Virus record (IMG/VR): IMGVR_UViG_3300035034_002581
Strand: one strand, 5' to 3'
Source of the DNA: a virus
Length of the DNA: 64,000 nucleotides
Shown here one piece after another: positions 7,431 through 64,000 of the stretch (positions are counted from its first letter, which is position 1; each line of letters opens with the position of its first letter). The notes under the pieces were generated by a model. The model was not told the origin of the DNA. It saw only the letters and a list, made by a program, of their open reading frames with translations, and did not search any database. A program made the position numbers and the translations under genes.

Positions 7431-7963
7431 TAGATACCTCCCGGACCAGCTCCTGCAGCTGCGGGTCTACGAGGCTCATTATCAGAAGGCTCAAGTGATA
7501 GATCGAACTGTGTATCGAGTGTCTCTTCTAGTGCATCTACAAATCCAGGACCATAGTTTTCTTCAACAAAGTTAATTGATCTGTTTAAGATTACTGTCTC
7601 AATGTCCAGGAGGTTTCGATAATTTTGAACAAGTCGAGCAACTCTACGAGCAAACTCATCAATGTCGATAGGTGGTTTGTCTGGCACACCCTCTGCATCC
7701 GCTTCGACATCAGAGCTATTAGGTACATCACCTCCTTCTTCGCTCTCTTCTTCGACATCGTCTTCGGGTGCCTCTATGAGGGTGGCCAGACTGTATAAGT
7801 AACCCTCTTCTTTGAGTTCTTCATCAATTGATTCATTTTCAAATCTAATTAGTAGTGAGTCGATTTGATCATCAACAGAGTCATCTGACAAGCGTGCTTT
7901 TCCACTAATGTTTGCAAGCTCTTCAAAGATGAGAGTTCGTAATGTGTTCTTTGATAGTTTCAT
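7430..7963 (-). CDS. acidic protein, shared-leader family member 1
   Basis: The N-terminus is MKLSKNTLRTLIFEELANISGK. The remainder is strongly acidic (EDDVEEESEEGGDVPNSSDVEADAEG). Confidence 0.45.
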   Translation of the reverse strand: MKLSKNTLRTLIFEELANISGKARLSDDSVDDQIDSLLIRFENESIDEELKEEGYLYSLATLIEAPEDDVEEESEEGGDVPNSSDVEADAEGVPDKPPIDIDEFARRVARLVQNYRNLLDIETVILNRSINFVEENYGPGFVDALEETLDTQFDLSLEPSDNEPRRPAAAGAGPGGI

Positions 7964-8244
7964 TAGTAGGTGTCTTCCTCAATCTCTTGCCCTGACGCTA
8001 GCATTTCGTACGAAAATGCACTTTTTCCACAATCGTAATCATCTTCGTCTGCTAAGATCTCTTCTCCACCACAACTTGGGCAACCACAACCGCAGTCGCT
8101 TCCTGTTTCATCGTCATACTCTTCATATTCGTCATACAAATCAGGAGAATACTCTTGTGGAACTAATGCAAAGCTGTCTCTTCCAATTGAGCGTGACAGC
8201 TCTTCTCTAATAATTCTTTTGAGCGTGCTTTTCTTAATTTTCAT
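7963..8244 (-). CDS. acidic Cys-cluster protein, shared-leader family member 2
   Basis: The N-terminus is MKIKKSTLKRIIREELSRSIG. It carries a CGCGCPSCGG cluster and an acidic tail. Confidence 0.45.
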   Translation of the reverse strand: MKIKKSTLKRIIREELSRSIGRDSFALVPQEYSPDLYDEYEEYDDETGSDCGCGCPSCGGEEILADEDDYDCGKSAFSYEMLASGQEIEEDTY

Positions 8245-8492
8245 TACTTTTCTCCGAATTCTTTTCGAACGTCCGATCTTTCATCATCGTCAAGTTCTTC
8301 ATCCCAGATTTTACCTGCAATTTCTCTTGCGTGATCTTCGTCATCTATGCCTGGAGTTTTTTGAACTGTATCTAGAGTTTCTTTCCACCAATTTTCGGGT
8401 GCACGAGATTCTGCATCTTCGTCAGCTTCTTCAATATAAGAGTTCAACGACTCTCTAATTAGAGCGCGAAGCCTACCTTTGGTAATTTTCAT
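8244..8492 (-). CDS. acidic protein, shared-leader family member 3
   Basis: The N-terminus is MKITKGRLRALIRESLNSYIEE. The body is D/E-rich. Confidence 0.45.
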   Translation of the reverse strand: MKITKGRLRALIRESLNSYIEEADEDAESRAPENWWKETLDTVQKTPGIDDEDHAREIAGKIWDEELDDDERSDVRKEFGEK

Positions 8493-8515
8493 AGTTGATA
8501 CTCCTCTTTTAAGTT

Positions 8516-8839
8516 CTACAACGTCTGTCGAATTAATTCAATTGCGTTTTCTTCTGGCATATTTCTAATTAGGCTTTTGTACAACTGATAGTCTCTAAAT
8601 ACTAAATCCTCCAAAACATCTGCAGGATCAGCATCTCTTGGGATAGCGTCTTGGCTCCGATCTCTACGCGTACTCTGAATGTACTTTTCAAGATCAGTCT
8701 TTAGGCTTAGTGGTGTTTCACCAAATGCACTTGTGTCGCTTCTGCTGAAATTACTACTAAAGTACATTGGATCATCGTCGATCATCTCCTGTAGTACTTC
8801 TTTAATTGATTCTCTGAGAAGCTTTCTTGTCTTGTTCAT
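8516..8839 (-). CDS. shared-leader family member 4
   Basis: The N-terminus is MNKTRKLLRESIKEVLQEMIDD. Confidence 0.4.
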   Translation of the reverse strand: MNKTRKLLRESIKEVLQEMIDDDPMYFSSNFSRSDTSAFGETPLSLKTDLEKYIQSTRRDRSQDAIPRDADPADVLEDLVFRDYQLYKSLIRNMPEENAIELIRQTL

Positions 8840-24112: not shown

Positions 24113-24340
24113 TTAGGCGTTGTATCCATCAGTAAATTCAGTAACAACATCAGATAGTATGTCAGTAGCATCTCTACCAGAGACACCTTCAGTTTTTTCT
24201 ACATCGACTAGAAATGCTTCAAGTGCTGTGTAAAGGCCAACTTCTTCTGCGATCTCATCGTACAATGGGTAAACGCCGTCTACTTCTGATATGACTTCTG
24301 CGATTAGGCCGCGAATTCTTTTTCTATTTAGTGTCTTCAT
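24113..24340 (-). CDS. shared-leader family member (paralog pair with the next gene)
   Basis: The internal Met start gives MKTLNRKRIRGLIAEVISEVDG, preceded by a cAGGAAAac RBS. YPLYDEIAEEVGLYTALEAFLVDVE is paralogous to the adjacent gene. Confidence 0.45.
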   Translation of the reverse strand: MKTLNRKRIRGLIAEVISEVDGVYPLYDEIAEEVGLYTALEAFLVDVEKTEGVSGRDATDILSDVVTEFTDGYNA

Positions 24341-24353
24341 GTTTTCCTGCTTA

Positions 24354-24605
24354 TTATCGTGCAAACGAAGGTTCAGAAAGGGACGATCTTAGCTTCTTTA
24401 TGTGTTCCATCATGAGATCTTCTAGTGCATCATATGCGTCTTCGTCAGTCGGGAATTTTTCCAATGTAATTGTCTCATCGACAAATCTTTCCATTGCGTC
24501 ATATAGCCCAACTTCTTGTGCAATCTCATCGTGTAGCGGGTAGGTGCTCTCTTTAAGAATGTTAGCTATTTCTTCTCGAATGAGCTTTTGAAACTTGGTT
24601 TTCAT
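24354..24605 (-). CDS. shared-leader family member (paralog)
   Basis: The internal Met start gives MKTKFQKLIREEIANILKES. YPLHDEIAQEVGLYDAMERFVDE matches the neighbour. Confidence 0.45.
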   Translation of the reverse strand: MKTKFQKLIREEIANILKESTYPLHDEIAQEVGLYDAMERFVDETITLEKFPTDEDAYDALEDLMMEHIKKLRSSLSEPSFAR

Positions 24606-24606
24606 C

Positions 24607-25011
24607 TTAGTCTTCCTCTTCATCAAATATGTCAACAAGGCTTGAAACACCAGTGTGAATTCCGTCTTCGTAGTCTTTCATTTTTTTAACTTTTTTCGGA
24701 CCCGCTTCTTCTTCTGCCATCTCTTGAGCTGCTCTAAGCTCTGCAGGTAGGTCTTTTACAGCGCCTTCGCCCATGAACCCTTTTGCAATCCAAGATCCGT
24801 CGGGCTTCAATATTAAGACTTCGTTTCCAAAAGCGCCTAAAGGATAAATTAAGACTTCGCCCTTATTTGATGTACTAACTGCCGTTTCACCTTGCTTGAT
24901 TCCAGCAGATAATTTTCGTGTGATAGACTGTGGTGAGTCTGACTGTCTTGCTACCAAATTGTCAAGTTCTTCTTTGATAAGCTTTCTAATTACTGACGTC
25001 GAGAGTTTCAT
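24607..25011 (-). CDS. shared-leader family member
   Basis: The N-terminus is MKLSTSVIRKLIKEELDNLVAR. The C-terminus is acidic (DIFDEEED). Confidence 0.45.
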   Translation of the reverse strand: MKLSTSVIRKLIKEELDNLVARQSDSPQSITRKLSAGIKQGETAVSTSNKGEVLIYPLGAFGNEVLILKPDGSWIAKGFMGEGAVKDLPAELRAAQEMAEEEAGPKKVKKMKDYEDGIHTGVSSLVDIFDEEED

Positions 25012-42211: not shown

Positions 42212-43225
42212 TCATCCATGTGTATATTTAAAGCCCTTAGTTTCGCTACCTTTTTTCTTCCTCTTTCTTCCAAAAGATGGGGTAGCAGCACCGAGAGGTA
42301 AGGTTGCTCCGGCTACTGCACCGGCGCCAGAAAATTCATCGAGATCATCATCGGTTTCTTCTTCTTCATCTTCATCTATTACAGTTTCACGAATAAGAGC
42401 CTGAAGTCTTCTTGACGTGGCTTCTTGTTGTTTGTTTGACTGACTCATAGCGCTCTTTTCTTCGAAGGATTCGCCTATGAATGCGTTAAGTGCACTCTGC
42501 ATTTTTGGAACGAATGGGTGCAACTTTTCGAGCTTTGGATCCTCTTGAATCTCGTCAAAAAGTTTATTGATCATGGATTCATTTCTACGCAGTGTTTCTT
42601 TAGCCATCTTAATTTTTTGAATGACTTTAGGACCGTGTTTAGTTGCTTGCTTAGATGCCTTTGGAAACGTCTTCAGCAACCAGTTGGCGATCTTTCCACC
42701 TTTTCCTAGTACATCACCAATAGCTGGTATCGTAGACACAAGAGAAAATGCTGCTAGAAGATTTTCGCCTTCAACTGCATATGCTATAGCATTTGTAGCG
42801 TCACATGCTGCTCCAACTCCAGCGCCGACACCAGTTAAGTCTGCTGCAATTCCGCAAACATCAAGTGCAAAGTGTGAAATACCTTTCGTAGCATCACTAA
42901 CACTAAGTTCGTGTACAAAAGCTTCACGTATATAGACTCTTAAAAGTGCTTCATCCAAAACAATACTCTTTTTTGGACACCTACAACGCATCATGCTATT
43001 ACAGCCGCATTCTGCCTCTTCGGAGTCTTCTCCCTCACCTGTATAAGTAGGCTCTTGACCGACATTTTGTTGAGAAATTTGACTCATTGTTGTATCAACA
43101 GAAGCAGAGGGTGAGCCTCCAGCTCCTGATAACCAAGCTGATCTCGGTGGATCAAAATTCTTGACTATTGGTTTGCCTAAGGCTTTACCTGGCGAAGCAC
43201 TTCTTGACTCTTTCTTTATACGCAT
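42212..43225 (-). CDS. hypothetical protein with Cys cluster
   Basis: 337 aa with EAECGCNSMMRCRCPKK. Confidence 0.3.
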   Translation of the reverse strand: MRIKKESRSASPGKALGKPIVKNFDPPRSAWLSGAGGSPSASVDTTMSQISQQNVGQEPTYTGEGEDSEEAECGCNSMMRCRCPKKSIVLDEALLRVYIREAFVHELSVSDATKGISHFALDVCGIAADLTGVGAGVGAACDATNAIAYAVEGENLLAAFSLVSTIPAIGDVLGKGGKIANWLLKTFPKASKQATKHGPKVIQKIKMAKETLRRNESMINKLFDEIQEDPKLEKLHPFVPKMQSALNAFIGESFEEKSAMSQSNKQQEATSRRLQALIRETVIDEDEEEETDDDLDEFSGAGAVAGATLPLGAATPSFGRKRKKKGSETKGFKYTHG

Positions 43226-51510: not shown

Positions 51511-54500
51511 TCACTTCGGCATTATTTTATTAGTTTCTAGAAGCACAGACGCTAGTTTATCAGACTCAAGTGTAACAGTCAAGTTAAGAGTCAAGTTAAC
51601 TCCTGGTGTCTCTATCTTAAGCTTATTATCTTTGATGCCTAAAACTTTTCCAATCTTTTCAAGGTTAATAGGCACATCGAGATCTGGGATGTCACCTAGA
51701 GATTTGTTGATAGAGCTAACGTCTGCTAGTACATTTGATATTGCTGACGCTGATGATCCTAGCACAGAGTTCATAATACTTTCGCTGTCTATTGCTCCGC
51801 TTATTATACTCGGTGCATCCATCAAAGTGCTTGACAGACCCTTTGTTACACCCAATCCGATGTTTTGGCCGATGTCTCTTTCAAACATCTTCGATGGCGA
51901 CGCAATACCCAAAAATGATTTAATTCCGTCTACGCTCGTTGAAAATGTTGCCATGAAGCCCTTCTTCATACCTGACATTCCCTTAAGCAAACCCGCCACT
52001 AAGTCTGTTCCAAATTCAGTAAACTTTAGTATAACCGGAGAGAAAACCTTATCATACAGATTGTTAAACAACGCGTCTTTCATACCATCCATTAGAGACA
52101 AAGCTAATGTGCCTGCGACAGCAATCAAACCTACAGATGTTTCAAGGAGTGTAAGCGTTTGGAGAAGCGCAGCTTCAAGATAAGTCATAAACAAGTTATC
52201 ACCGCTTTCATTTTCTGCAGTGAATGCATTGAATAGACCGGTAATTATCTTTGAACCAACTTCTGACGCCTTCTTAGACATAAAGACTATCATTTCGTCA
52301 GAGAAGAGATAGCTGTTGAGTTCACCTAACATCTTAGTTACACTTTTACCTGATGAGATAATGCTTTTAAATAGTGAATCTACAATTGCGTATCCCGTGT
52401 CACGTAAAGATTGCTGTAACTCAGAGTTGTTTTGGAATCCTTCAATAGACTTCTTTAAAGAGTTCCACATAGAAGACGTAAACTTACTCATTGATGCCAT
52501 CATTGAAGAGCTTTTCTTTGAGTTGTTGCTAATTATGTCGGGTATGCTCTGTACGAACCTAACAACTTCGGGTTTTGCTTTTTCGTACAAACTATTAAAA
52601 GCGAACTTTAAGGCTTTGAACATTATGTTCGCCGAGCTTTTAATAAATCCAACAACCTTATCACCAGACTCAATCAGTGCGTTATACATTGTAGTGTAAG
52701 GACCAGCTTCACCTTCAGCAAAATCTACAAGCTCACCCTTCTTGTTTACTTTCTTGTCTAATATACCAAACGATGTTTTAAGTCCCGTCCAGAAGCCATT
52801 AGCAACTTCATCAAAGTTGGCACCGCTGCCGAGACCAAAAAACAGAGTAGTGAAAACTGCTTCAATAGACGCCTTAAACTTTTCATATTTCGCCGGATCA
52901 AACAATTGATTGAATCCTTCTGCAAACTTTTCAACTCCAGGGAAAGCTCGCATGAATGTTTTTCCAATTGTCATTCCAGCAAAGTGAACAAGATCAAGCG
53001 ATTTGTGTAGATTGCTTAGCATTGTCATGAATGGACCTGATACTTTGATTCCATTCTGAAACCCTGAGATAAACGTGTCAAAGAAGCTCTCGTGTTCAAA
53101 TACACGCACAATCCTCTGAATGTTATCTGCCATCATTGCCAATGTCTCGTTCATTCTCTCTTGAGGATCAGCTTTCTTAGCTTGCTTTCGAATATCTTCC
53201 ATGGACTTTCCACGGTTCTTCATTGAAAACGCAAGACGTGCCTCTTCTTCTGAGAGACCTGACGTTGATGCTAGAAGTCTTAGCTCTGCTGTTGACATCT
53301 TTGAGGCGTCACGACCAGCTGAAAACATCGAGTTTCTGAGTTGATCCAAGACTTTGCCGCCGCCTTTGGCAGCACCGTTCATGAGTTGCAAAGTGTCAAG
53401 GTTGACACCAAAAGACTGTGACAGCATTGACGCACTTTTAGCAGCATCTTCAAAGTTCAAGAATTTATCTGACAGCTTTCCAAGCACTTCGACTTCTAAG
53501 CCAAGTGATCTAGCTCGCATAGCAGCGGTCGTAAGTGTTTCAATGGTGTTATTACCAAAGTCCTTGACATTAGACACCATTTTTGTTAGGTCTTGAGCTA
53601 TCTGTTTACTTGACACATTGAATGCTTTTTCCATCTGTGTTGCATATGCAGATACTTCATTCAATGTGTCACCAAGTGTGTTCCCCATTGACTTTGACAA
53701 CATTGCTAGGGATTTTGTCTGTTCACCCGAAAGACCCATACCTTTTGTCAGTGTAACAAATTCGGCACCTAATGCCTGAATCTCAGGACCGAAAGTATCA
53801 ATCAGAGATCCCATACCGCTAAACTGCTTAGAAAAGTAATTAATTGCGTCAGCTGAGTCTGTAAAGACGCTGTGGAAGTTAAGGCCCGAGATGATACCCA
53901 TGCCGTTTCTGGCACCTTCTAAGGCACCTCCGAGCGCTTTTCCTGCAACGTTTTCTAGGTTACCAAGCTCTCCTCTAAAAGACTCGTAAGCCTCGGTTAC
54001 GTGCTTCCATGCTTTCGCCTGTTCATTAGACAGTTTAATCATATTGCTGAATATACTGAATGGGATTGATATAATCGCAGCACTCATTCTGTAAATTGAG
54101 CTTCCTGCTTGTTTCATGATCCCGACAAACGAAGAACCTAACTCTTTAATCAAGGTAAACCCCTTAGACGCTACAGCAAAGAATCCTGTAAAAAGCCTCG
54201 TCGGGACAAACTTTCCCATACCCTTAAGCAATGTAGAAGCCGCGCCGATTAGATCACCTTGATTGAGGAGTTGATCGCCCGCAGATCTCAGCGTATCTGT
54301 AATCGTATTATATGTGTCGTCTACCTCTTTACCCATTTCACGAAAGCTATTAGCAAGATCTAATGCATTTTTAGCAGAATCAGTCGCAGAAGAACCACCA
54401 GAGACAGCTTTTTTAATACCCTCTGCAGTTGCAAGTTGTCCTTGTAGAACAGTCTGTTGCTGCTGCAAAGTATCCAGAATTTCTTTTTGGAGCTTAGCAA

Positions 54501-54543
54501 ACTGTGCAGCAAACTGCTGAAATTGGGAAATACTGTCTGCCAT
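51511..54543 (-). CDS. tail tape measure protein
   Basis: 1010 aa. It is Ala/Gly/Ser/Leu-rich and helical with repeated GxxxG-like segments. Its position, downstream of the tube/chaperone genes and upstream of the baseplate, fits. Confidence 0.55.
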   Translation of the reverse strand: MADSISQFQQFAAQFAKLQKEILDTLQQQQTVLQGQLATAEGIKKAVSGGSSATDSAKNALDLANSFREMGKEVDDTYNTITDTLRSAGDQLLNQGDLIGAASTLLKGMGKFVPTRLFTGFFAVASKGFTLIKELGSSFVGIMKQAGSSIYRMSAAIISIPFSIFSNMIKLSNEQAKAWKHVTEAYESFRGELGNLENVAGKALGGALEGARNGMGIISGLNFHSVFTDSADAINYFSKQFSGMGSLIDTFGPEIQALGAEFVTLTKGMGLSGEQTKSLAMLSKSMGNTLGDTLNEVSAYATQMEKAFNVSSKQIAQDLTKMVSNVKDFGNNTIETLTTAAMRARSLGLEVEVLGKLSDKFLNFEDAAKSASMLSQSFGVNLDTLQLMNGAAKGGGKVLDQLRNSMFSAGRDASKMSTAELRLLASTSGLSEEEARLAFSMKNRGKSMEDIRKQAKKADPQERMNETLAMMADNIQRIVRVFEHESFFDTFISGFQNGIKVSGPFMTMLSNLHKSLDLVHFAGMTIGKTFMRAFPGVEKFAEGFNQLFDPAKYEKFKASIEAVFTTLFFGLGSGANFDEVANGFWTGLKTSFGILDKKVNKKGELVDFAEGEAGPYTTMYNALIESGDKVVGFIKSSANIMFKALKFAFNSLYEKAKPEVVRFVQSIPDIISNNSKKSSSMMASMSKFTSSMWNSLKKSIEGFQNNSELQQSLRDTGYAIVDSLFKSIISSGKSVTKMLGELNSYLFSDEMIVFMSKKASEVGSKIITGLFNAFTAENESGDNLFMTYLEAALLQTLTLLETSVGLIAVAGTLALSLMDGMKDALFNNLYDKVFSPVILKFTEFGTDLVAGLLKGMSGMKKGFMATFSTSVDGIKSFLGIASPSKMFERDIGQNIGLGVTKGLSSTLMDAPSIISGAIDSESIMNSVLGSSASAISNVLADVSSINKSLGDIPDLDVPINLEKIGKVLGIKDNKLKIETPGVNLTLNLTVTLESDKLASVLLETNKIMPK

Positions 54544-54929: not shown

Positions 54930-55250
54930 TTATGTGAATCTGGTCATTTTAGATGGAACAAACTGTCTGTCCCTTCCCTGCAAATTCCTGAGTTGAGGCG
55001 AATTGTGATGAGCACCTCTCGACTCTCCATTCCCTTCGTCATTTGATTTTGCAAATTCCTTGTTGATTCTACGTATAAACCAAAGACGATAAGAAATCGG
55101 AAGTTTTCGCGCTTCACTGTATGAGAATCCGCCATAGTACATCAATACAAAGCAGTGCTCAAGTGTGTTCTCTCTATACGCGCTGCTATTTTCAGGAGTC
55201 AGGCCAAAAAAACTTGGCCCCAAGGGGCATGTTAACCTCCTGTTGTTCAC
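54930..55250 (-). CDS. +1-frame ORF overlapping the 3' end of the upstream 280-aa ORF (candidate frameshift extension, tail assembly chaperone-like arrangement)
   Basis: It overlaps 55192..56034 by 59 nt. It is in the +1 frame relative to that ORF, and the overlap contains an A/T7 tract at ~55206..55212. Confidence 0.3.
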   Translation of the reverse strand: MNNRRLTCPLGPSFFGLTPENSSAYRENTLEHCFVLMYYGGFSYSEARKLPISYRLWFIRRINKEFAKSNDEGNGESRGAHHNSPQLRNLQGRDRQFVPSKMTRFT

Positions 55251-56034
55251 CGCATGCTGGGCACTCCGTCCATCCCTTCATGTCAATTCCAGGCTCGTTT
55301 TCTTCCATGAACTTTCTCAAAGCACGACTGTCACTAGCAGGCATGTTTCGAATGAATATGTTGATCTTGTTAGGATCTGAAATACCACCAACAGAGATTA
55401 TTGCTCTTCTAAGTCGCCCTGTTACTAATGTGTCTTTTGCAAAGCGCATCGTTTTTCTTCTACGATCTGCCTCTTGTAGAAGATCGTTTTCATCAGCACC
55501 TGTCAAGAACTTAAATAGGACGTTGTGTCCTGAACGTGGTAGCTTGAACTCAAATTCATTCTTGCCTTCTTCTGTAGGGTCAATTTTGAGTTTCTTAATA
55601 GGAAGCGCTGACAAATCGAACTCTGCTTCTACACCTTCACCACAACTACCACATGTAATTGATGCTTCGTATTCGCTCCCGTACCCTGTGATTCTATGTG
55701 CAACCATTATTGCGTTTCGATCTCCAGACAAGAGCGCGTCTGGAGAGACACCTGGCGATAAAATGCAAGATCTAAGAAGTTCTGTAATAACAGTGCCCTT
55801 CTTGATTAGCGCTCTTGATGTCAGGATGTCTTCTTGAACAGCAGTCATTGCAGATATTTCTACAGAATGCTTACCATAAAGTGGGCTATCTACTCCGTAA
55901 ACCCTTCCTTCTGATGGTAGTGGTGCTAGATCAACTGGAACGTCAATTCCGAAGTCGTCTTTCATTACATCACGCCTTGTAATACCATCGGATCGATCTC
56001 TACCGAAAACTTCGTTCTTTCTATCTTCTGACAA
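55192..56034 (-). CDS. tail assembly chaperone-like protein (zero-frame product)
   Basis: 280 aa with CGSCGEG...CPACGEQ zinc-ribbon-like Cys pairs. It is located between tube and tape measure. Confidence 0.35.
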   Translation of the reverse strand: MSEDRKNEVFGRDRSDGITRRDVMKDDFGIDVPVDLAPLPSEGRVYGVDSPLYGKHSVEISAMTAVQEDILTSRALIKKGTVITELLRSCILSPGVSPDALLSGDRNAIMVAHRITGYGSEYEASITCGSCGEGVEAEFDLSALPIKKLKIDPTEEGKNEFEFKLPRSGHNVLFKFLTGADENDLLQEADRRRKTMRFAKDTLVTGRLRRAIISVGGISDPNKINIFIRNMPASDSRALRKFMEENEPGIDMKGWTECPACGEQQEVNMPLGAKFFWPDS

Positions 56035-56148: not shown

Positions 56149-56862
56149 TTAGAGTTTAGCTAACATGTCGTCTAATGTCTGGAGTGATAGTGCAAGTCTG
56201 TCACCAGCTTTTCCGAGGCACATAGAGCGTCTAATTCTTGGAGTAAAGCTGTTGTGTAGGTAAAGCCAATCAGAAATAAGCTTCTTAGCTTTTGTCATTA
56301 CAATTGAGTCGTTGCTTTCGTATCCAATCGTGTTTCGTTCTCTTTCTCTTCTGTCACCAAATCCTTTAGGTCCTCTTTGCTTAGGACCTGCAGATGTGAC
56401 ACCACCAAAAGGAGCTTCTGCCAAACCAATCTTCTTCGCTTCTTTCATAATTGTCTCACGAAGTTCATCAGCAGTAAACTTTGTACCTTCGTGAAGCTCT
56501 CCGACAAGAGACTTAAGCGTGCTTTCAAGTTCTATGACAATGTCTGACATTTCTTGTCCTGCTTTACTTCTGCAAATAAAGCTATGCCATTTAGGGTTAA
56601 ACGCAGACAGATCTCTCAATGCTTGCTTAAGAGCATTTGTTGCATCTCTAGATGCTTGTGGTGAAAGCGTAGTAGGTGTAAAGTTTGAAGGCTCTGGAAC
56701 ATCCATAGGATCGTCAAACTGATTGTCAAATCGACGCGCGCCTCTTTGAGAAGGGCCTGCAGATGTGACACTACCAAAAGGAGCTTCACTTAGACTAGAC
56801 TCTTCTAGTTTTTTTATCTCCTCTCTTACGATTTGCTTAAACTCTTTAAGTTTAATTCTCAT
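56149..56862 (-). CDS. shared-leader family member with internal ~135-aa duplication
   Basis: The N-terminus is MRIKLKEFKQIVREEIKKLEES. EAPFGSVTSAGPSQRG and EAPFGGVTSAGPKQRG are repeated, with a ~33-nt near-identical DNA repeat. Confidence 0.4.
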   Translation of the reverse strand: MRIKLKEFKQIVREEIKKLEESSLSEAPFGSVTSAGPSQRGARRFDNQFDDPMDVPEPSNFTPTTLSPQASRDATNALKQALRDLSAFNPKWHSFICRSKAGQEMSDIVIELESTLKSLVGELHEGTKFTADELRETIMKEAKKIGLAEAPFGGVTSAGPKQRGPKGFGDRRERERNTIGYESNDSIVMTKAKKLISDWLYLHNSFTPRIRRSMCLGKAGDRLALSLQTLDDMLAKL

Positions 56863-56880
56863 CTTTTTATCTCCGTTAAT

Positions 56881-57369
56881 TTAGTACTGTAGGACTGCGT
56901 TATCAAATCGAAGTGTCAAAGTTATGTCTGAAATGTCGTTGCTTTCGTAATCTAAATCACCAAAGTTAATTGATGTTGGGAAAGCACCCTTAATGTCCCA
57001 GAGTTCAACAACAGTACCAACGGGATCTAGCATTTTAAGCTGGACATCGCGCTTGTAGAAATCTGCATATCCACCACGTGCGGATACAGATTCATAGATT
57101 AATCTTAGCCATTCCATAACCTGCTGAGCACCTGATGGTGCGATTGGGTCATGAAGTGTAATGTCAATTGTTTCGAACTTCGTTTTGCCTGCAAGGTAAC
57201 GCGTCGCATTAATGTATCCAATCTCAACTTCATCAGTTGAAATCGATGGTCTTGCAGCAATTTTCATCATGTAAGAATCGACTCCTTCAATTTGAAAAAC
57301 CCATCTAAACTTGCGCTTTGCTTCAAACTTGTTGGGTAACATGTCTGTTACGGAAAGTGTCTCTGCCAT
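56881..57369 (-). CDS. tail tube protein (T4 gp19-like)
   Basis: 162 aa. FEAKRKFRWVFQIEG is the typical gp19-family N-terminal motif. It is immediately downstream of the sheath genes. Confidence 0.65.
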   Translation of the reverse strand: MAETLSVTDMLPNKFEAKRKFRWVFQIEGVDSYMMKIAARPSISTDEVEIGYINATRYLAGKTKFETIDITLHDPIAPSGAQQVMEWLRLIYESVSARGGYADFYKRDVQLKMLDPVGTVVELWDIKGAFPTSINFGDLDYESNDISDITLTLRFDNAVLQY

Positions 57370-57417
57370 TTTAGAAAACTCCTATTACATTACTACATAT
57401 CATTAAGAACAAACTTA

Positions 57418-58143
57418 TTACCTCTTTGAGTCGAAAAGTACATTATAAAGAGACACTTTCGACTCCTTGACACCTTTGCGCCTATCAAGTATTTCGCGTG
57501 CGACCGATACTACACTCTTGTATATTTCTTGAGGTTCTTTGTCCGGAAAATCACCTGATTTGTATAGCTTTTGTGTGATTCTTCCTGCGAGCGAACTGTG
57601 ACCTTTAAGACCAGCAATATCACCGAGTTCTGTTGGGTTCATGGGCAGAACCTTTGCAATCTTGCGTCTTAGATCCTGATCATGTTCTCCTGTCCCTGAC
57701 TTTTTGGCAACTTCTACTGCCTTCATCGCATCTTCAATGTTAAGTTGTGGGTATTTTTTAATTATGTTCTGTGCAAGTGTCTTGATCATTCTGCCTGATA
57801 TTTCACTTGCATCGTACTGCCCAAAGACTTTTGACGCGTATCTAATTGCGACACCAATCTGAGCTGATTCAATCAATACTGACTCATTAACTACGCCCTG
57901 AAATACAAGCTCGTCCATGACGTCATCTAGAAGGTCGAAGTCAAAATTGGAAGGATCTGCATAGCCAGAACTTATAAGCTCATCGTGAACGAACGATTCA
58001 AGTTCGGACTCAATGTAATACTCGTCCCTGATCATGTCACCGTACTGTTGAGCAATATCACTGGCAATTTGGCTAGCAGACGGTGCTATAGCATTCATCT
58101 CTGTCAAAATCAAATTGCGCAGTGTAGCTTTGTTCAACCTCAT
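57418..58143 (-). CDS. shared-leader family member located between sheath and tube genes
   Basis: The N-terminus is MRLNKATLRNLILTEMNAIAPS. Confidence 0.4.
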   Translation of the reverse strand: MRLNKATLRNLILTEMNAIAPSASQIASDIAQQYGDMIRDEYYIESELESFVHDELISSGYADPSNFDFDLLDDVMDELVFQGVVNESVLIESAQIGVAIRYASKVFGQYDASEISGRMIKTLAQNIIKKYPQLNIEDAMKAVEVAKKSGTGEHDQDLRRKIAKVLPMNPTELGDIAGLKGHSSLAGRITQKLYKSGDFPDKEPQEIYKSVVSVAREILDRRKGVKESKVSLYNVLFDSKR

Positions 58144-58145
58144 GA

Positions 58146-61136
58146 TTATACCTCAGCACCTGCGTTTGTAACAACGAAGTCGATTCCGACGAACTCTGCT
58201 GTCTTAGTAGGCTGTACAAAGATTTGTCCTCGAATCGTCTTGTTTTCGATGTCTGCAGCCGACGTTGTTGTTGTATCAATTCTAACCCTGAATCTTTCAA
58301 CACCCTGAAGCTCTTGAATTCTTTGCAGTCTTGGACGAACTAGTGTTTCAAACTTAGATAGAGTTGTTGCTCTAGCTGGCTCAAAGATTAGTCGATCTGC
58401 AATCTGCTTGACTTGGCGTCTAACTTCAATTAGCAAGCGTCTTACGTTAACTCTGTCAAGTGAGCTTGCTGTTGAAAGAAGTGTCTTCTGACCCCATACT
58501 ATTGGACCCGATGATCCTGGGAACTTAGTAATTGGGTTAATGTCCACGTCGTAAAGCTCATCAAGGTTTGAGCGGTTAAGGTTGACCGATGATTCTACTG
58601 AAGAGTTTAGTGCACCTCTTGCGAAACCTGCTGGAGCTGTCCATGGGTGACCAAGAGAGTCGTTAAGTGCAAAAGCACCTAGTACTACAACAGAAGGAGG
58701 AACCTTAACATTTGTAAATGTTGTTGGATCTTCCACAATCTGATCAGGGAAGTAAGCTGCAGCGAAAGAAGTATCAAGATTTCTGTTACTAAATGATGCC
58801 ACAGTGTTTGCAACAGAGACTTCTTGTTCTGATCCTGTCACGACAGTATTTAGAGTATCACGTTCTTCGACGTCCATGATGAACATTGCGTCGAATCGGT
58901 CTTCTGTCGTAATAATGGCTTGATCTGTGACGATTGAGTGTCTAATACCAGGAATAGCAAGCAGCTTAATATCAACTTCTGATTTCTCACCAATAACATC
59001 CAGAGCCTTTGTATAAGCGCTAACTGTAGCTGCTTCATCTTGTCCTCTAGAAGCGTCTGACATCTCTTCTACAATGGCGGCATTGGTAAGTTTTGCAGCC
59101 TTCTCATTGAAGATCCTAACTCCGTCGAATCCACCCTGTGTAAAGAAGGTAAACTTAGCATAACGTCTAGCAGTTAGGTCAGCAAGGTCTGTCTCAATAT
59201 TGAAACCACGTGTCTTGTTAGTTTCATTTGCAACAATACCACCAGTCCTTGAGTATGAAGCTGATGCCCATAGCTTAGGATCTGCTAAGCCGTTGGCACC
59301 TGTAACTACCTGAACTCTTTCTAGTGAGAACAAGTTATTGTTAAATCTGTCTGCATCATATACCGTACCGTCAGAATCTGCTGTACCCTCGTTGTCACCA
59401 ACCCAAGACTTCTGCCATACTGTGTGGTAGTGTGGGTAGTACTGTGTGTAACTGTCAAGGCTCTTATCTGAGACGAGTGTCTTGTTAGTTTCTGCAAGGT
59501 CAGTCTTCTTCTCAAACTGAACTCCCCAATGCAAGTTAGCGTTGACTGATTTCTTCGGACCTGTCCCAACAGCGACGTTGTCTCTGAATGGAACTGGAAG
59601 CTCTACGGCTCTTTCAATCGAAGTGCCCTGACCCGTAACGTGTACTCCCACATCTTCAGTGCCTGGGTTTAAAATACTACTACCTGATGTTACAAGGTGC
59701 TTAGGTCCTCTAAATCCTACAGGAAGCGAAACATCAGGGACTTCAGCATTGTTAACTGATGGTGCCATCTCGACCCTAATGTACTTTGATACGTTAGGGA
59801 AACTGCCATCAAGAACCAGCTTTTGTCCGTCTTCGCTCTTGTCGAAGTCAAAGTAGAAGTGCTGATCGCCGATTACCTTTGCAATGTATCTATCGTTAGA
59901 TGGATCCAAGCTAAGTTTAAAGAAGCTTTCAAGGACAAATTGATCTTCATCTGTATCAGACCAACGTCTAACAACTAGATCAAATGTTCCGTACTGATCA
60001 CGTTCTGATGTAGATGGCGCAATGTTTCTGATAGAAATCTTGAACTTGCCGTTTGCATACTCGCCGTCATCTAGTGAGTGAATCTTGAAGAGGTTCTTCG
60101 GAGACCCACCAAAGTTCTGCGAAACAACGAAAGGGGATTCCGGAGTTCTAAAGCGATCTTCGTAACTCTCGAAGTTTGGAACCGCAGATGAACCAGAGTT
60201 TCTTGTAAGTGTTGTCGTTGTCAAGAAACCAACAGGCTCTAGAGACGCGCCGCCGAATGTTGCTGCAGCGTCAATGATACCAGTGCCTGTAACAACTGCG
60301 AATGATGGGTGAATATCATAGTGTGTGTAAAGGTAGTGTCCAGTCTCTTCTATAAGGAGTGGATCTGTGTTTAAGACATTAGGGAAGTAATTGCTAGAGT
60401 CAACATCAAAAGATGCAGTAACAACACCAGGATACTGGCTAGTTGGCTTGTGTCCGTTAAGTATGACAACAAACTCTTGCTTACTACTCGATAGATCAAT
60501 AGTACCAGTGATTGCACCAGCAGGCCCCGCGGACGTCGCAGGTGTAGAACCATCAGGTGCTGTGTTGTTGTCTGTTAGAGAACCCGACATTGTTGGAACG
60601 ACACCAGAAGCTGCGAAGATGACGCCTCGAACAATAGGATGAGCCTTTGAGCTATCTTGAATACCAGCAGCACTGAAGACTGTGCTTCCTGCAGATTCTG
60701 ACATGTAGCAGCCCAAAAAGTGTGCTCGACCCGGAACACCATCAGATACAGCGAATCTGTTCGCGCCTAGCAGACCTGATGGCTGAGGCTGTTCGTCACC
60801 TACGACGAAGCCCGCACGAGTAACCTTACCGGCATTGTCACCAGTAGAAGTTCTCTTTTTACCATCACCGACGCCGAGGACTTTTAGATATGTAGCAGCT
60901 TGAGAGTTCTGAAGCCACTCATTGACAGCGAGCGGTCCGAACTTCTCTCCGTCGGTATCTCCAAAGACAACTTTGAAGTCGCTAAATTTTGCAAAAACAA
61001 TAGGCACGAAAGCAGGACCCTTTACTGATGTCCCGATGACACCTGCAGGAACACCCACAGGCTCAACATTTGAAGGACCGGATAGGCCTATTTCTCTTGC
61101 GCTAACGCCCGCACTTCTATAAGTGAGTTCAGACAT
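58146..61136 (-). CDS. contractile tail sheath protein (paralog 2)
   Basis: 996 aa. The C-terminal region IVWGQKTLLS...RVNVRRLLIEVRRQV...LIFEPA...RVRIDTTTTSAADIENKTIRGQIFVQPTKTAEFVGIDFVVTN matches conserved sheath C-domain features (WG.RT, VNVRR, FEPN-like, PAEFV-like). Confidence 0.75.
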   Translation of the reverse strand: MSELTYRSAGVSAREIGLSGPSNVEPVGVPAGVIGTSVKGPAFVPIVFAKFSDFKVVFGDTDGEKFGPLAVNEWLQNSQAATYLKVLGVGDGKKRTSTGDNAGKVTRAGFVVGDEQPQPSGLLGANRFAVSDGVPGRAHFLGCYMSESAGSTVFSAAGIQDSSKAHPIVRGVIFAASGVVPTMSGSLTDNNTAPDGSTPATSAGPAGAITGTIDLSSSKQEFVVILNGHKPTSQYPGVVTASFDVDSSNYFPNVLNTDPLLIEETGHYLYTHYDIHPSFAVVTGTGIIDAAATFGGASLEPVGFLTTTTLTRNSGSSAVPNFESYEDRFRTPESPFVVSQNFGGSPKNLFKIHSLDDGEYANGKFKISIRNIAPSTSERDQYGTFDLVVRRWSDTDEDQFVLESFFKLSLDPSNDRYIAKVIGDQHFYFDFDKSEDGQKLVLDGSFPNVSKYIRVEMAPSVNNAEVPDVSLPVGFRGPKHLVTSGSSILNPGTEDVGVHVTGQGTSIERAVELPVPFRDNVAVGTGPKKSVNANLHWGVQFEKKTDLAETNKTLVSDKSLDSYTQYYPHYHTVWQKSWVGDNEGTADSDGTVYDADRFNNNLFSLERVQVVTGANGLADPKLWASASYSRTGGIVANETNKTRGFNIETDLADLTARRYAKFTFFTQGGFDGVRIFNEKAAKLTNAAIVEEMSDASRGQDEAATVSAYTKALDVIGEKSEVDIKLLAIPGIRHSIVTDQAIITTEDRFDAMFIMDVEERDTLNTVVTGSEQEVSVANTVASFSNRNLDTSFAAAYFPDQIVEDPTTFTNVKVPPSVVVLGAFALNDSLGHPWTAPAGFARGALNSSVESSVNLNRSNLDELYDVDINPITKFPGSSGPIVWGQKTLLSTASSLDRVNVRRLLIEVRRQVKQIADRLIFEPARATTLSKFETLVRPRLQRIQELQGVERFRVRIDTTTTSAADIENKTIRGQIFVQPTKTAEFVGIDFVVTNAGAEV

Positions 61137-61172: not shown

Positions 61173-64000
61173 TTAGTTGAACGATACACCCGAATTCGTG
61201 ATAATGAAGTCAACTGCAACAAACTCGAACGTTCTCGTAGGTGTAACTATGATACGACCGTTTAGTCTATTTGACTCAATATCCTCTGATGTATTGTTTG
61301 ATTCATCCATCACAATATCGAATCTTTCGATTCCAGACTGAGTTTGAATGAGTCCTAATGGTGGCTTGACTAGCTTGATAAATCTTTGTCTAGTCGATGC
61401 TGTATTTTGTTCGAAAACAAATCTTTGAGCAATATCAATGACCTGCTTCTTAATCTCAAGCATGAGCCTTCTTACGTTAACTCTGTCAAGAGCAGATTGT
61501 GCCTGCTGCAGAGTTTTCTGTCCCCAAACAACGTATCCCTGTCTTGGGAATGTAGCAATAGGGTTGATTCGTGCATCATGCAGACTATCTCTATCTGCCT
61601 TATTGAGCCTAACTTCAACATTTGTGACAAAGTCAAGTGAAGCTCTGTTAAAACCGGCAGGAGCGTACCAAGGGTAAGATGATTTATCGTTGAAGGCAAG
61701 TGCTCCGAGTGCAGGAATTGAAGACGGAACCTTGACGCGACGCTTATTGACCGGGTCATCAATGAAGACGTCTGGGAAGTATGTTGCTACGTAACTGTTG
61801 TCAATAGCTCTTCCATTAAACTGTTCCTTCGTCTTTCTCACATCAGGTTTAGCCGTCGATGAATCGAACAGTCGAACTCCATCTTCGTCGTAAGAAACTG
61901 GGTCGAGAATGTACATAGCCAATGCGTACTCTCTTACCTTAGTAGATGCGTAGTCCGTTACAAAACTATCTCTCATGCCCGGTATTGTCAATATGTTTGT
62001 ATTGACTGTGAACGGATCAGTCATGATGTCTGTCGCAGCGCGATATGACTTAACAGCGTTGTTGTTTTGACCTACTCCGCCAACGTTAGAGGAAAGACCT
62101 GGTGAAACAAAGCTTGAAGCGGCGCCGCCACCTGTATCACTTGATGCTGCTTGATCATTCATTCTTGATGCATTAGGGTCAAGGACGTTAAATCCATCGA
62201 ATCCGCCGCCGAGAACTGTTGTGTACTTAGTAAACTCTGAGAACCTGTTAAACTCTGCAGAGGAAGTAAGTGCTACAAGTGTCGCAAGAGTAATTCTATC
62301 TAGACTTGAATCTGTAATTCTAAATCCAGTTACGTCAGGTACGCCATTTCTGATGTACGCCATTTCTTTTGCGTGTTCTCTAACAGAAGCTGTCAAATCT
62401 GCAACTGCACCGTTGCTAAATGCAACCTTTGCAAGTGTAAACTTGTTGTTGTTAAATTTGTCTGCGCCCGATCCTGTCACTAGCGCGTCTAGCTTCTTAA
62501 TGCCCAAGAATCTTGTGTATGACTCAATAAGTGGGTTTGCTCTTGATCCAGCATTTGAGTTGTAAATTGCGTTTGATACAGTTCCTGACTTAGGAAGTCT
62601 TTCAAACTTTACACCCCAATGAAGTCTATTGTCGACTAGTTCACCAATTCCTGGCTTGCCTGTGAATCCACCTGATGTAGATACAGCGCCCTTCGTAACC
62701 TTAAATCTAAATGGTAGTGGTGGCACGATTGATCCGGAAAGTACTCCGCCCGCAGCATCTTCTGCCGCAAACGCAAGACGTCGAGACAATACATCGCCTT
62801 CTCCAGGAAGTGCAACTACTGGATTGTCAGTCAGTGTATCAGAAGTTTTTAGTGCTTCAATACCACGGAAGCCGAATGGAAGTGCTCCGTCTGGGACAGA
62901 TCGCTTTTCAACTCCGGGTTCCATGATGACACGAATGTAGTTAGAGCGATTCGGGTACTTGCCACTGATCACAATTCGTCTATCATCAGCGCTATCAGCG
63001 TCGAAGTTATAGAATGCCTTCTTGTCACCAATTGCTCTTGCAATGTAGTTCTGTGATCTTGGGTCTAGAGAAACATTAGGATATCTCTCAAGAACTTGCT
63101 GATCAGTGTCATTATCATCCCACTTACGAACAGATACAGAGAACGTTCCATATGGGTTTGCAGGGTTAGATGACTTCTTAAGATCAGTAATTGCAATCTT
63201 GTACTTGGAGTTTGAGTATGCTCCATCATCTAGCGCTTCGAATCTAAACAGGTCATATTCTGTAGAACCATAAGGCTGTGAAATAAACCTTGTAGTTGTT
63301 GGTGTAGTATATCTGGTATCGAATCTACCGAATAGGTTGCGGAATATAACAGCGGTATCACCAGAAACCTCAGAGGTTAACAGGGAACCCGAAGTGATTG
63401 CAATTGAATCTGATTCTGTTGACACAGTTGCAAGTTCATTCTCAACCGTAAAGTCCGCATACAGCAAGTGCTCTTCTTCCACAAATCTATCAGGATCGGT
63501 GTTGAGAATCTTGCCGATGTAATTAGAGTTGTCAGGGTCGAGTGATGCTGTCAGTATTCTAAGCCCTGACAAACCATCGCCCGTTGAGAAAGCAGGCGTC
63601 GAACTTGAAATAACAAGCTTGAATAGCCCTGCGCTCGTTACAGTTGCTTGGTCATTAGCAGTATGACTAAAAGTTTCACCAGTTCCGTTGAGAACCATCA
63701 TTCTCGTGCCCGATGGCATCAAAACCATTGCTCTAACAAGTGAAGCAAAGTTATCTGTTGACGTTCCAACACTGTCATTCTGTGTTAAAGATGGGTAACC
63801 GACTGCTTCTGATGCTGACACAAAGTGTTTTGCAACCAAGAATTGTACAGCTCCGTTGTGACGGCCCAAGCTATCGTCAACGACTTCTGATGAAGTAAGA
63901 CTAAAGCCTGCATTTTTGACAGTACCTTTTGCCCTTGTTGCTTCAATATCAGATGAAGTATCGTTTGCACCTGCTCCAAGAACTCTAAGATACGTAACCG
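61173..64000 (-). CDS. contractile tail sheath protein (paralog 1; N-terminus beyond window end)
   Basis: It is paralogous to 58146..61136 (NRLHWGVKFE/NLHWGVQFE, PYGTFSVSVRKWDDNDTDQQVLE/QYGTFDLVVRRWSDTDEDQFVLE, and VNVRRLMLEIKKQVIDIAQRFVFEQN...FEFVAVDFIITN). The table start (TTG at 63869) is not the real start, because the frame stays open through 64000. Confidence 0.75.
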   Translation of the reverse strand, partial: VTYLRVLGAGANDTSSDIEATRAKGTVKNAGFSLTSSEVVDDSLGRHNGAVQFLVAKHFVSASEAVGYPSLTQNDSVGTSTDNFASLVRAMVLMPSGTRMMVLNGTGETFSHTANDQATVTSAGLFKLVISSSTPAFSTGDGLSGLRILTASLDPDNSNYIGKILNTDPDRFVEEEHLLYADFTVENELATVSTESDSIAITSGSLLTSEVSGDTAVIFRNLFGRFDTRYTTPTTTRFISQPYGSTEYDLFRFEALDDGAYSNSKYKIAITDLKKSSNPANPYGTFSVSVRKWDDNDTDQQVLERYPNVSLDPRSQNYIARAIGDKKAFYNFDADSADDRRIVISGKYPNRSNYIRVIMEPGVEKRSVPDGALPFGFRGIEALKTSDTLTDNPVVALPGEGDVLSRRLAFAAEDAAGGVLSGSIVPPLPFRFKVTKGAVSTSGGFTGKPGIGELVDNRLHWGVKFERLPKSGTVSNAIYNSNAGSRANPLIESYTRFLGIKKLDALVTGSGADKFNNNKFTLAKVAFSNGAVADLTASVREHAKEMAYIRNGVPDVTGFRITDSSLDRITLATLVALTSSAEFNRFSEFTKYTTVLGGGFDGFNVLDPNASRMNDQAASSDTGGGAASSFVSPGLSSNVGGVGQNNNAVKSYRAATDIMTDPFTVNTNILTIPGMRDSFVTDYASTKVREYALAMYILDPVSYDEDGVRLFDSSTAKPDVRKTKEQFNGRAIDNSYVATYFPDVFIDDPVNKRRVKVPSSIPALGALAFNDKSSYPWYAPAGFNRASLDFVTNVEVRLNKADRDSLHDARINPIATFPRQGYVVWGQKTLQQAQSALDRVNVRRLMLEIKKQVIDIAQRFVFEQNTASTRQRFIKLVKPPLGLIQTQSGIERFDIVMDESNNTSEDIESNRLNGRIIVTPTRTFEFVAVDFIITNSGVSFN

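What the first reader, a model, noticed from the sequence alone, without database searches (positions are those of the whole stretch)
56149..58143. Leader-family proteins embedded in the sheath/tube tail module
Two members of the shared-leader family flank the tail tube gene, at 57418..58143 between sheath and tube and 56149..56862 just after the tube. This is the zone where T4 encodes prohead core proteins with capsid-targeting sequences. Either the leader is not capsid-specific and could be a general virion or tail-lumen targeting peptide, or morphogenesis genes are interleaved with the tail genes here.
Basis: inference. Interest (0 to 1): 0.55.

Follow-up and report, generated by a model that had tools for sequence, protein, structure and literature searches.

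The report
Head-targeting-like leaders on genes beside tail tube
Two unknown genes flanking the tail tube gene of an uncultured T4-related phage start with the short peptide that its prohead-module proteins also carry, so they are probably head-packaged cargo genes inserted into the tail operon, not tail parts.

Summary
ORFs 57418..58143 and 56149..56862 (minus strand) flank the tail tube gene. Both begin with a roughly 15-residue leader, MK(L/I)(T/S)(R/K)xxL(K/R)x(I/L)(I/V)xE(E/C)L. A leader profile built without them scores 14.2 and 7.6 bits (p about 3e-5 and 9e-4). Across 1.03 Mb of related contigs the leader appears only at start codons of coding-strand ORFs (80 hits against 0 in shuffles).

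The phage belongs to an uncultured far-T4 clade with an S77 (gp21-type) prohead protease and a gp23-type capsid protein. That capsid protein has an invariant LLRE near where T4 gp23 is cut. Two conserved genes next to the protease carry the same leader; no recognisable tail protein does.

In 27 of 28 relatives sheath and tube abut, and in 19 of 22 tube and hub abut, so these are lineage-specific insertions. The leader resembles the T4 propeptides (IPIII MKTYQEFIAE|A, gp24 MAKINELLRE|S) in form but not in sequence.

Best reading: a clade-specific capsid-targeting propeptide on variable cargo genes slotted between tail genes. ORF237 is a tandem two-module fusion with two conserved (L/I)xE|A-PFGG sites. 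Cleavage, packaging and the function of the mature proteins are untested.

The parts
57418..58143 (-). ORF241: 241-aa acidic (pI 5.3), predicted all-helical protein of unknown function with an N-terminal leader. Sits between sheath paralog 2 and the tube gene.
   Evidence: ORF; no Pfam, PHROG or cultured-phage match; only two homologs (P0006, P0007; 33-37% identity), both directly after sheath2 in their contigs. AF2 pLDDT 68.6; no fold match.
58099..58143 (-). Leader of ORF241 (residues 1-15, MRLNKATLRNLILTE).
   Evidence: 7.6 bits with an HMM built without this family; p about 9e-4. M1 L8 R9 I12 L13 E15 invariant in the three family members. The Glu is one residue later than in the consensus.
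56881..57369 (-). Tail tube gene (gp19-like), with no leader.
   Evidence: PF06841 and phrog_4542; 45% identity to the tube of Microcystis phage Mel-JY01.
56149..56862 (-). ORF237: 237-aa basic (pI 9.2) protein made of two tandem copies of a module (leader helix, (L/I)xE|A-PFGG, disordered basic linker, helical hairpin with a conserved C..KAG). Sits between the tube and the gp26-like gene.
   Evidence: halves align with score 110 against 26.5 +/- 4.8 for shuffles (z = 17); about 11 related clusters in 1.84e9 representatives, and all seven full-length ones that were read start with the leader; homologs lie downstream of the tube in L004/5 and directly upstream of the gp26-like gene in L006-9. 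AF2 pLDDT 59.7.
56785..56862 (-). ORF237 leader 1 through the first candidate cleavage site (residues 1-26, MRIKLKEFKQIVREEIKKLEESSLSE|A).
   Evidence: 14.2 bits; p about 3e-5; a following PFG/PFK/PFS motif (PFGG in most members) is conserved in family members.
56416..56481 (-). ORF237 internal second leader-like helix with its candidate site (residues 128-149, KFTADELRETIMKEAKKIGLAE|A).
   Evidence: R135, E136, E141, G146, L147 and E149 are invariant in the family. The site GLAE|APFGG is better conserved than the first one.
58146..61136 (-). Tail sheath paralog 2 (996 aa), with no leader.
   Evidence: PF04984, PF17482, phrog_23 3e-49.
61173..64000 (-). Tail sheath paralog 1, cut off by the window end (1020 aa in full).
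55192..56034 (-). gp26-like 'T4_baseplate' gene (probable hub or tail assembly chaperone), with no leader. In most relatives it directly follows the tube.
   Evidence: PF12322 1.9e-15, phrog_150..
7430..8839 (-). Tandem cluster of four small acidic leader-bearing genes (7430..7963, 7963..8244, 8244..8492, 8516..8839). These are other members of the leader set.
   Evidence: 24-26 bits; pI 4.0-4.8; no family match.
24113..25011 (-). Tandem cluster of three small acidic leader-bearing genes (starts at 24340, 24605 and 25011).
   Evidence: 13.6, 17.0 and 23.2 bits; the first two are paralogs.
1627..2931 (-). 434-aa basic protein whose N-terminus, MKDNLREFIREA, is a variant leader close in form to T4 IPII/IPIII MKTYQEFIAEA. 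Weak by the clade HMM.
   Evidence: 2.6 bits only, so this rests on visual resemblance.

Best explanation
ORF241 and ORF237 are accessory late genes whose products carry a clade-specific N-terminal capsid-targeting propeptide, analogous to the T4 CTS.

The proposed mechanism, in order:
1. The amphipathic leader helix (about 15-25 residues) docks the protein onto the scaffolding core while the prohead assembles.
2. The S77 (gp21-type) prohead protease then cuts after a Glu that follows two aliphatic residues. Candidate sites are ...IVRE|E or ...LSE|A in ORF237 and ...ILTE|M in ORF241.
3. The mature protein stays inside the head and is probably ejected with the DNA.

ORF237 is a fusion of two such leader-plus-body modules and would be cut twice, after E26 and after E149, giving two paralogous small proteins that each begin APFG.

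The genes lie between tail genes because junctions of the late structural operon serve as insertion slots for such cargo cassettes, not because the products are tail parts.

Shown here: the leader, its strict N-terminal position, its presence on genes beside the protease, the protease and capsid homologs, the insertion pattern, and the internal duplication.
Inferred: targeting, cleavage, packaging, ejection.
Unknown: what the mature proteins do.
For: 1. The leader is real and strictly N-terminal. With a window-seed HMM, 38 hits of at least 12 bits occur in 1.03 Mb of related loci against 0 in shuffles, all on the coding strand and all starting at a start codon. With the iterated HMM, 80 hits of at least 10 bits against 0.

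2. The phage has the T4 head-maturation set: Peptidase_S77 at 2e-25 and Gp23 at 1e-76. The capsid protein has an invariant (L/V)L(R/K)E at residues 58-61, LLRE in most of the 28 distinct relative N-termini. This lies within a few residues of where the mature T4 gp23* N-terminus aligns.

3. Two genes always placed after the protease (about 140 and 84 aa) carry the leader in at least 17 loci.

4. The leader ends in (I/L)(I/V)xE, the same form as T4 IPII/IPIII ...FIAE|A, IPI ...ITE|A and gp24 MAKINELLRE|S (sequences read). In T4, 10-20-residue propeptides are the CTS, cleavage is after Glu, and IPIII residues 8 and 10 govern processing (PMC5694885, PMC9026906).

5. The bodies of leader-bearing proteins are unrelated to each other, as for the T4 internal proteins, which share only a CTS (PMC3012670).

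6. An ART-PolyVal ADP-ribosyltransferase with a leader-like N-terminus (MMLLRETIRRMITE) sits between gp13 and gp14. This parallels T4 Alt, a packaged and processed ADP-ribosyltransferase (PMC9026906).

7. The sheath, tube, gp26-like, tape measure, gp13, gp14 and gp15 proteins have no leader.

8. Sheath2 and tube abut in 27 of 28 relatives, and tube and hub in 19 of 22. Leader genes follow sheath2 only in L005, L007, L013, L015, L069, L070 and L087. Many more lie just upstream of gp13.

9. Leader codons differ freely between paralogs, so selection acts on the peptide and not on the DNA.
Against: - No experimental data exist for this clade and no cultured member is available. Cleavage and packaging are inferred from motif form alone.
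- The clade HMM does not hit the T4 propeptides, so the relation to the T4 CTS is analogy, not demonstrated homology.
- ORF241 fits the consensus only moderately (7.6 bits, Glu displaced by one residue).
- P1' after the leader core is often E, C or L rather than the small residue usual in T4, so the exact cut site is uncertain.
- ORF237 keeps its place next to the tail genes in three lineages at 48-53% identity, which would also fit a tail-related role.
- Most leader-bearing proteins are acidic, whereas the T4 internal proteins are basic.
- Leader-like helices also occur internally and at one C-terminus.
Confidence: 0.58

Rival explanations
1. The leader is an uncleaved, general-purpose N-terminal amphipathic helix (an oligomerisation or partner-binding handle) shared by many accessory proteins of this clade. 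ORF237 and ORF241 are non-virion accessory proteins, for example host-takeover or anti-defence factors made late, that happen to be inserted in the tail operon.
For: - The mature parts have no recognisable structural-protein fold.
- Many leader genes also lie among replication and nucleotide-metabolism genes (window 7430..8839 and 24113..25011).
- The proteins are mostly acidic.
- Leader-like helices occur internally and C-terminally.
Against: - The leader is strictly at start codons in 80 of 80 strong hits.
- It sits on two conserved genes inside the protease-scaffold-capsid module.
- It ends in the same aliphatic-aliphatic-x-Glu form as the invariant capsid-protein site.
- T4 internal-protein genes are likewise scattered outside the head module.
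Confidence: 0.2
2. The leader is a general virion tag or a tail-lumen tag. ORF241 and ORF237 are loaded into the tail (tube lumen or sheath-tube interface), or act as tail assembly factors, which would explain their position around the tube gene.
For: - They are immediately adjacent to and co-oriented with sheath, tube and the gp26-like gene, with intergenic gaps of 2-48 nt and 18-114 nt.
- The ORF237 family keeps this position in three lineages.
- Leader genes recur specifically after sheath2 in at least 7 lineages.
Against: - No identifiable tail, neck or baseplate protein carries the leader.
- Both slots are empty in about 80-95% of relatives that have the same sheath, tube and hub, so the products cannot be required tail parts.
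- The inserted genes differ between lineages.
- The leader's conserved carriers are next to the prohead protease.
- No tail-lumen targeting peptide is known (my own knowledge, not a tool result).
Confidence: 0.07
3. The shared N-terminus is a by-product of how these genes arise. Cassettes would be duplicated or recombined at a common 5' segment (ribosome-binding site plus first codons), so the leader would be inherited baggage or a translation-initiation optimum without a targeting role.
For: - Leader genes occur in tandem arrays (window 7430..8839; L069, four in a row).
- They sit at hot-spot junctions that are also used by homing-endonuclease-like genes.
- ORF237 itself is a tandem duplication.
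Against: - Leader codons are not conserved at the DNA level between paralogs.
- Amino-acid conservation runs to residue 16 or beyond, with specific invariant positions (L8, K/R9, I/L11, I/V12, E14).
- That conservation is kept in orthologs at only 33-50% overall identity.
- It is retained in the internal copy in ORF237, where translation initiation is irrelevant.
Confidence: 0.1

Closest known systems
Capsid targeting sequence (CTS) propeptides of phage T4 internal proteins IPI, IPII, IPIII, Alt and gp24, cleaved by the gp21 prohead protease
   Same: - A short N-terminal peptide shared by otherwise unrelated proteins.
- It begins MK and ends aliphatic-x-Glu.
- The genome encodes an S77 gp21-type protease and a gp23-type capsid protein with a propeptide.
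- Cargo genes are variable between relatives and scattered in the genome.
- One candidate cargo is an ADP-ribosyltransferase, like Alt.
   Different: - No detectable sequence homology to the T4 CTS.
- The leader is longer (15-25 aa against 10-19).
- The cargo is mostly acidic rather than basic.
- The repertoire is larger: 11 or more in 64 kb, plus 3 in the head and neck region.
- Some cargo genes are wedged between sheath, tube and the gp26-like gene.
- ORF237 carries two leader-plus-site modules in one polypeptide.
- Nothing has been tested experimentally.
Propeptide-bearing ejection proteins of giant phages phiKZ, 201phi2-1 and SPN3US
   Same: - Many head-internal proteins are processed after Glu by a gp21-related protease.
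- Conserved N-termini are shared between diverged paralogs (SPN3US gp53/gp54; PMC5694885).
   Different: - Those propeptides are mostly longer than 100 residues.
- Their motif is A/S/G-x-E, not aliphatic-x-E.
- This phage's head module is T4-like, not phiKZ-like.
Tail assembly chaperones and small accessory genes between tube and tape measure in contractile-tail phages
   Same: They occupy the same genomic position, between the tube gene and the tape measure gene.
   Different: - That role here is filled by the gp26-like gene, which has a conserved T7 slippery run and an overlapping +1 ORF.
- ORF237 is absent from most relatives and matches no chaperone family.

Membership tests
T4-type CTS-bearing prohead core / internal proteins | A short (10-20 aa) N-terminal sequence shared by proteins whose mature parts are unrelated. 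| tested here: met
   (leader statistics). (bodies unrelated).
T4-type CTS-bearing prohead core / internal proteins | The leader ends in the prohead-protease motif: an aliphatic residue at P3 and Glu at P1. | tested here: met
   (I/L)11, (I/V)12, x, E14 (55 of 69). ORF237 has IVRE, LSE|A and LAE|A. ORF241 has ILTE. This is the same form as T4 IAE|A, ITE|A and LRE|S.
T4-type CTS-bearing prohead core / internal proteins | The genome encodes a gp21-type (S77) prohead protease and a gp23-type capsid protein with an N-terminal propeptide. | tested here: met
   PF03420 2e-25 and PF07068 1e-76; invariant (L/V)L(R/K)E, LLRE in most members, about 10 residues before the conserved mature core. These genes lie just outside the window, on near-identical contigs L010 and L011.
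T4-type CTS-bearing prohead core / internal proteins | Sequence homology of the leader to the T4 CTS. | tested here: not met
   the clade leader HMM gives no N-terminal hit on the T4 ipI/ipII/ipIII or gene 18-24 regions. The resemblance is in pattern only.
T4-type CTS-bearing prohead core / internal proteins | The propeptide is removed by the protease, and the mature protein is inside the head and ejected. | not testable with these tools
   This needs virion mass spectrometry or in vitro cleavage. No cultured member of the clade was found.
Structural tail proteins / tail assembly factors | Conserved in the tail module of relatives that share the same sheath, tube and hub. | tested here: not met
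   sheath2 and tube are adjacent in 27 of 28 loci, and tube and hub in 19 of 22; both slots are empty in Mel-JY01 and immuto.
Structural tail proteins / tail assembly factors | Sequence or fold similarity to a known tail protein family. | tested here: not met
   (no Pfam or PHROG match). (no fold match, but the models are of low confidence).

The most novel reading that the evidence does not exclude
The leader is not head-specific. It would be a general virion-loading tag that also places proteins in or on the tail (tube lumen or sheath-tube interface). ORF241 and ORF237 would then be tail-borne cargo delivered ahead of the DNA. That would be a targeting route not known for contractile-tail phages.
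Probability: 0.07. Interest if true: 0.8.

Novelty: new member of a known kind. Interest (0 to 1): 0.45.

Why it matters
If the leader works like the T4 CTS, a simple sequence rule identifies the whole set of proteins that an abundant, uncultured clade of T4-related phages packs into its head and probably injects into the host. That set is at least 14 per genome in the sequence examined, and it varies strongly between relatives. All of these proteins are currently 'hypothetical', and they are prime candidates for host-takeover and anti-defence effectors.

The result also shows that such cargo genes can sit between sheath, tube and chaperone genes. Position in a tail module is therefore not evidence of a tail function when annotating metagenomic phages.

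ORF237 would be an example of two cargo proteins made from a single precursor by the prohead protease.

Tried and rejected
- Pfam and PHROG scans of both ORFs and of ten other leader-bearing proteins found nothing.
- tblastn of both ORFs against 50,697 phage records found nothing.
- Word-indexed protein searches found only 3 homologs of ORF237 and, even with a family profile, only 2 of ORF241.
- The exhaustive profile search for the ORF237 family found about 11 clusters. It also returned one 2604-aa repetitive protein (P0008, 29 weak stretches), which I regard as a repeat-inflated false positive.
- The AlphaFold models are of low confidence (pLDDT 59.7 and 68.6). Foldseek against BFVD and PDB gave no match with E below 0.08, so the mature proteins have no inferred function.
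- A first leader HMM built from seven window sequences was too small. It gave ORF237 only 1.6 bits and shuffles reached 13.5 bits. It was replaced by a clade-wide HMM.
- I considered a DNA-level repeat or recombination signal and rejected it, because leader codons differ between paralogs.
- I considered a secretion signal peptide and rejected it on inspection: the leader is charged and amphipathic, with no hydrophobic core.
- Literature searches found no prior description of this leader in metagenomic or marine phages.
- I could not walk further along the contig to find the portal gene, because look-ups are restricted to window proteins.
Full report
**What is in the window**

Nearly all long ORFs are on the minus strand. 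The flagged interval holds, in transcription order:
- tail sheath paralog 1 (61173..>64000, cut by the window end; 1020 aa in full)
- tail sheath paralog 2 (58146..61136)
- ORF241 (57418..58143)
- the tail tube gene (56881..57369; PF06841, phrog_4542)
- ORF237 (56149..56862)
- a gp26-like 'T4_baseplate' gene (55192..56034; PF12322 1.9e-15)
- small ORFs, then a 1010-aa probable tape measure (51511..54543)

Both ORFs have good Shine-Dalgarno sequences and start 2 and 18 nt after the preceding stop, so they are co-transcribed with the tail genes.

**Which phage this is**

A near-identical contig extends upstream (L010, L011). Its gene order is: S77 prohead protease (PF03420, 2e-25), a 141-aa gene, a 140-aa gene, an 84-aa gene, 156-aa and 201-aa genes, an S21-like gene, a 507-aa probable scaffold, a gp23-type capsid protein (PF07068, 1e-76), a 689-aa homing-endonuclease-like gene, gp13, a 157-aa ART-PolyVal ADP-ribosyltransferase, gp14-like, gp15, then the two sheath genes.

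The nearest cultured phages are only 45-46% identical in tube or capsid protein: Flavobacterium phage immuto and Microcystis phage Mel-JY01. IMG/VR holds 231 stretches that encode a relative of the gp13-like protein, and the 80 kept were 62-81% identical apart from the same-phage locus. This is therefore an abundant, uncultured, distant member of the T4 superfamily.

**Is the leader real?**

- A profile built from nine window N-termini finds 38 hits of at least 12 bits in 1.03 Mb of related loci translated in six frames, against none in shuffled sequence. All 38 are on the coding strand and begin at a start codon.
- After iteration, with the ORF237 and ORF241 families deliberately left out, there are 80 hits of at least 10 bits against 0 in shuffles.
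- The consensus of 69 non-redundant leaders is M1, K2, (L/I)3, (T/S)4, (R/K)5, x, x, L8, (K/R)9, x, (I/L)11, (I/V)12, x, E14, (E/C)15, L16.
- With this independent model ORF237 scores 14.2 bits and ORF241 7.6 bits. Among 29,380 shuffled N-termini of the same composition, 1 and 25 reach those scores.
- ORF241's leader is also invariant at six positions in its only two homologs. This supports the upstream ATG over the Met16 start used in one gene call.
- Leader codons differ freely between paralogs, so the conservation is at the peptide level.
- Beyond the leader, the proteins are unrelated to each other.

**What the leader is associated with**

- The 140-aa and 84-aa genes that always follow the protease carry the leader in at least 17 related loci: MKLxRxxLKxIVKECLVEILAEG and MKLTPxLLRxIVLEEK.
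- The capsid protein has an invariant (L/V)L(R/K)E at residues 58-61, LLRE in most members, followed by a variable Gly-rich stretch and then the conserved mature core.
- In the alignment to mature T4 gp23*, the T4 N-terminus falls within a few residues of this site.
- The leader's (I/L)(I/V)xE end has the same form as that site.
- It also has the same form as the T4 propeptides that I read from the T4 genome: IPII/IPIII MKTYQEFIAE|A, IPI ...ITE|A, gp24 MAKINELLRE|S.
- According to the T4 literature, these 10-20-residue propeptides are capsid targeting sequences. They are cleaved after Glu by gp21, with IPIII residues 4 and 7 needed for targeting and 8 and 10 for processing. The T4 internal proteins share nothing but the CTS (PMC5694885, PMC9026906, PMC3012670).
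- None of the recognisable tail, neck or baseplate proteins here begins with the leader.
- An ADP-ribosyltransferase with a leader-like N-terminus between gp13 and gp14 recalls T4 Alt.
- The cultured relative immuto has comparable N-termini in its head module (MKKSQIVKAVQEVLEE......EHFIAE|A) and IVSE|A in its capsid protein.

**Why the genes sit in the tail module**

Across the clade the order is protease, p141, core140(leader), core84(leader), p156, p201, scaffold, MCP, [variable], gp13, gp14, gp15, sheath1, sheath2, tube, hub, tape measure.

- Sheath2 and tube abut in 27 of 28 other loci, and tube and hub in 19 of 22. The same is true in Mel-JY01 and immuto.
- Leader-bearing genes follow sheath2 only in a minority of lineages: L005, L007, L013, L015, L069 (four in tandem), L070 and L087. 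They are different genes in different lineages.
- Another hot spot lies just upstream of gp13, in about 12 loci.
- Homing-endonuclease-like genes use the same junctions.

The two ORFs are therefore lineage-specific insertions into junctions of the late operon. T4's own order (18, 19, 20, 67, 68, 21) is not the explanation.

**The two proteins themselves**

ORF241:
- It is acidic and predicted all-helical (pLDDT 68.6).
- It has two homologs, both placed right after sheath2.
- It has no family or fold match.

ORF237:
- It is basic and belongs to a small family: about 11 clusters among 1.84 billion representatives. All seven full-length members that were read start with the leader.
- Its homologs lie downstream of the tube in L004/5 and directly upstream of the gp26-like gene in L006-9.
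- It is a tandem duplication (z = 17). Each half consists of a leader-like helix, a conserved (L/I)xE|A-PFGG, about 40 disordered basic residues, and a helical hairpin with a C..KAG motif.
- The internal GLAE|APFGG is the best-conserved part. I infer a precursor cut twice into two paralogous small proteins.

Both genes diverge faster than sheath and tube (40-53% against 70-82% identity), but not faster than the tape measure.

**Verdict**

'Tail-lumen tag' has no support but is not excluded.

The mechanism (docking to the prohead core, cleavage by the S77 protease, packaging and ejection) is inferred by analogy with T4 and rests on motif form and gene context only. The leader has no detectable homology to the T4 CTS. 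No member of the clade is cultured. The mature proteins have no predicted function.

I rate this a new member of a known kind (CTS-type propeptides on variable head cargo), of moderate interest.

Noticed in passing
window 55192..55250 (minus strand); also L006, L010, L040, L041, L043, L044, L051, L067, L068, L084: The gp26-like 'T4_baseplate' gene ends ...AAG TTT TTT TGG CCT GAC TCC TGA. The run of seven T is conserved in all ten relatives examined. The +1 frame continues into the overlapping ORF 54930..55250 (conserved FFGL..YRE...LMYY.G.SY.E...P..YR.WFI.RI.KE), as also in seven of those ten relatives. This looks like a conserved programmed frameshift or slippage site of the tail-assembly-chaperone (G/GT) type, just upstream of the tape measure gene.
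   Followed up: partly
L011:11215-11688 (same as L010:4452-4925), just beyond the window end, between gp13 and gp14-like: A 157-aa ART-PolyVal ADP-ribosyltransferase (PF18760, 3e-6, just below Pfam's cut-off) with a leader-like N-terminus, MMLLRETIRRMITE. It is a possible analogue of the packaged T4 Alt enzyme.
   Followed up: partly
window 58146..61136 and 61173..>64000; all related loci: Two tandem tail-sheath paralogs of about 1000 aa each are conserved throughout the clade, whereas the cultured relatives Mel-JY01 and immuto have one sheath gene.
   Followed up: no
L011:3113-3334: A 73-aa ribosomal protein S21-like gene (PF01165, 9e-6, just below the cut-off) sits inside the head module, between the core genes and the scaffold gene. 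It is present in several relatives.
   Followed up: no
L011:7005-9074; L005:7702-9495; L017-L019: Large zinc-finger, homing-endonuclease-like genes related to each other are inserted at different late-operon junctions in different relatives: after the MCP, between gp13 and gp14, and after the tube. These are the same junctions used by leader-bearing genes.
   Followed up: partly
window ~931 (-), ~42409 (-); L013:9885-10622 C-terminus: Leader-like helices occur away from N-termini: SSRLLRNLIRESLVTEGLE inside the truncated ORF ending at 1630, TSRRLQALIRETVIDEDEEE near the C-terminus of 42212..43225, and ESKLTRGSLRSMILSELKKRK at the C-terminus of an ORF241 homolog (16 bits). These may be internal or C-terminal processing sites, or remnants of gene fusions.
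   Followed up: no
window 7430..8839 and 24113..25011 (-): Two tandem arrays of small, very acidic (pI 4.0-4.9) leader-bearing ORFs with no known family lie among what look like non-structural genes, although their neighbours were not annotated. The arrangement resembles the polymorphic internal-protein loci of T-even phages.
   Followed up: partly
P0008: A 2604-aa protein made of about 29 near-identical 90-aa repeats scored 5e-66 against the ORF237 profile through many weak stretches. It is probably a repeat-inflated false positive.
   Followed up: no
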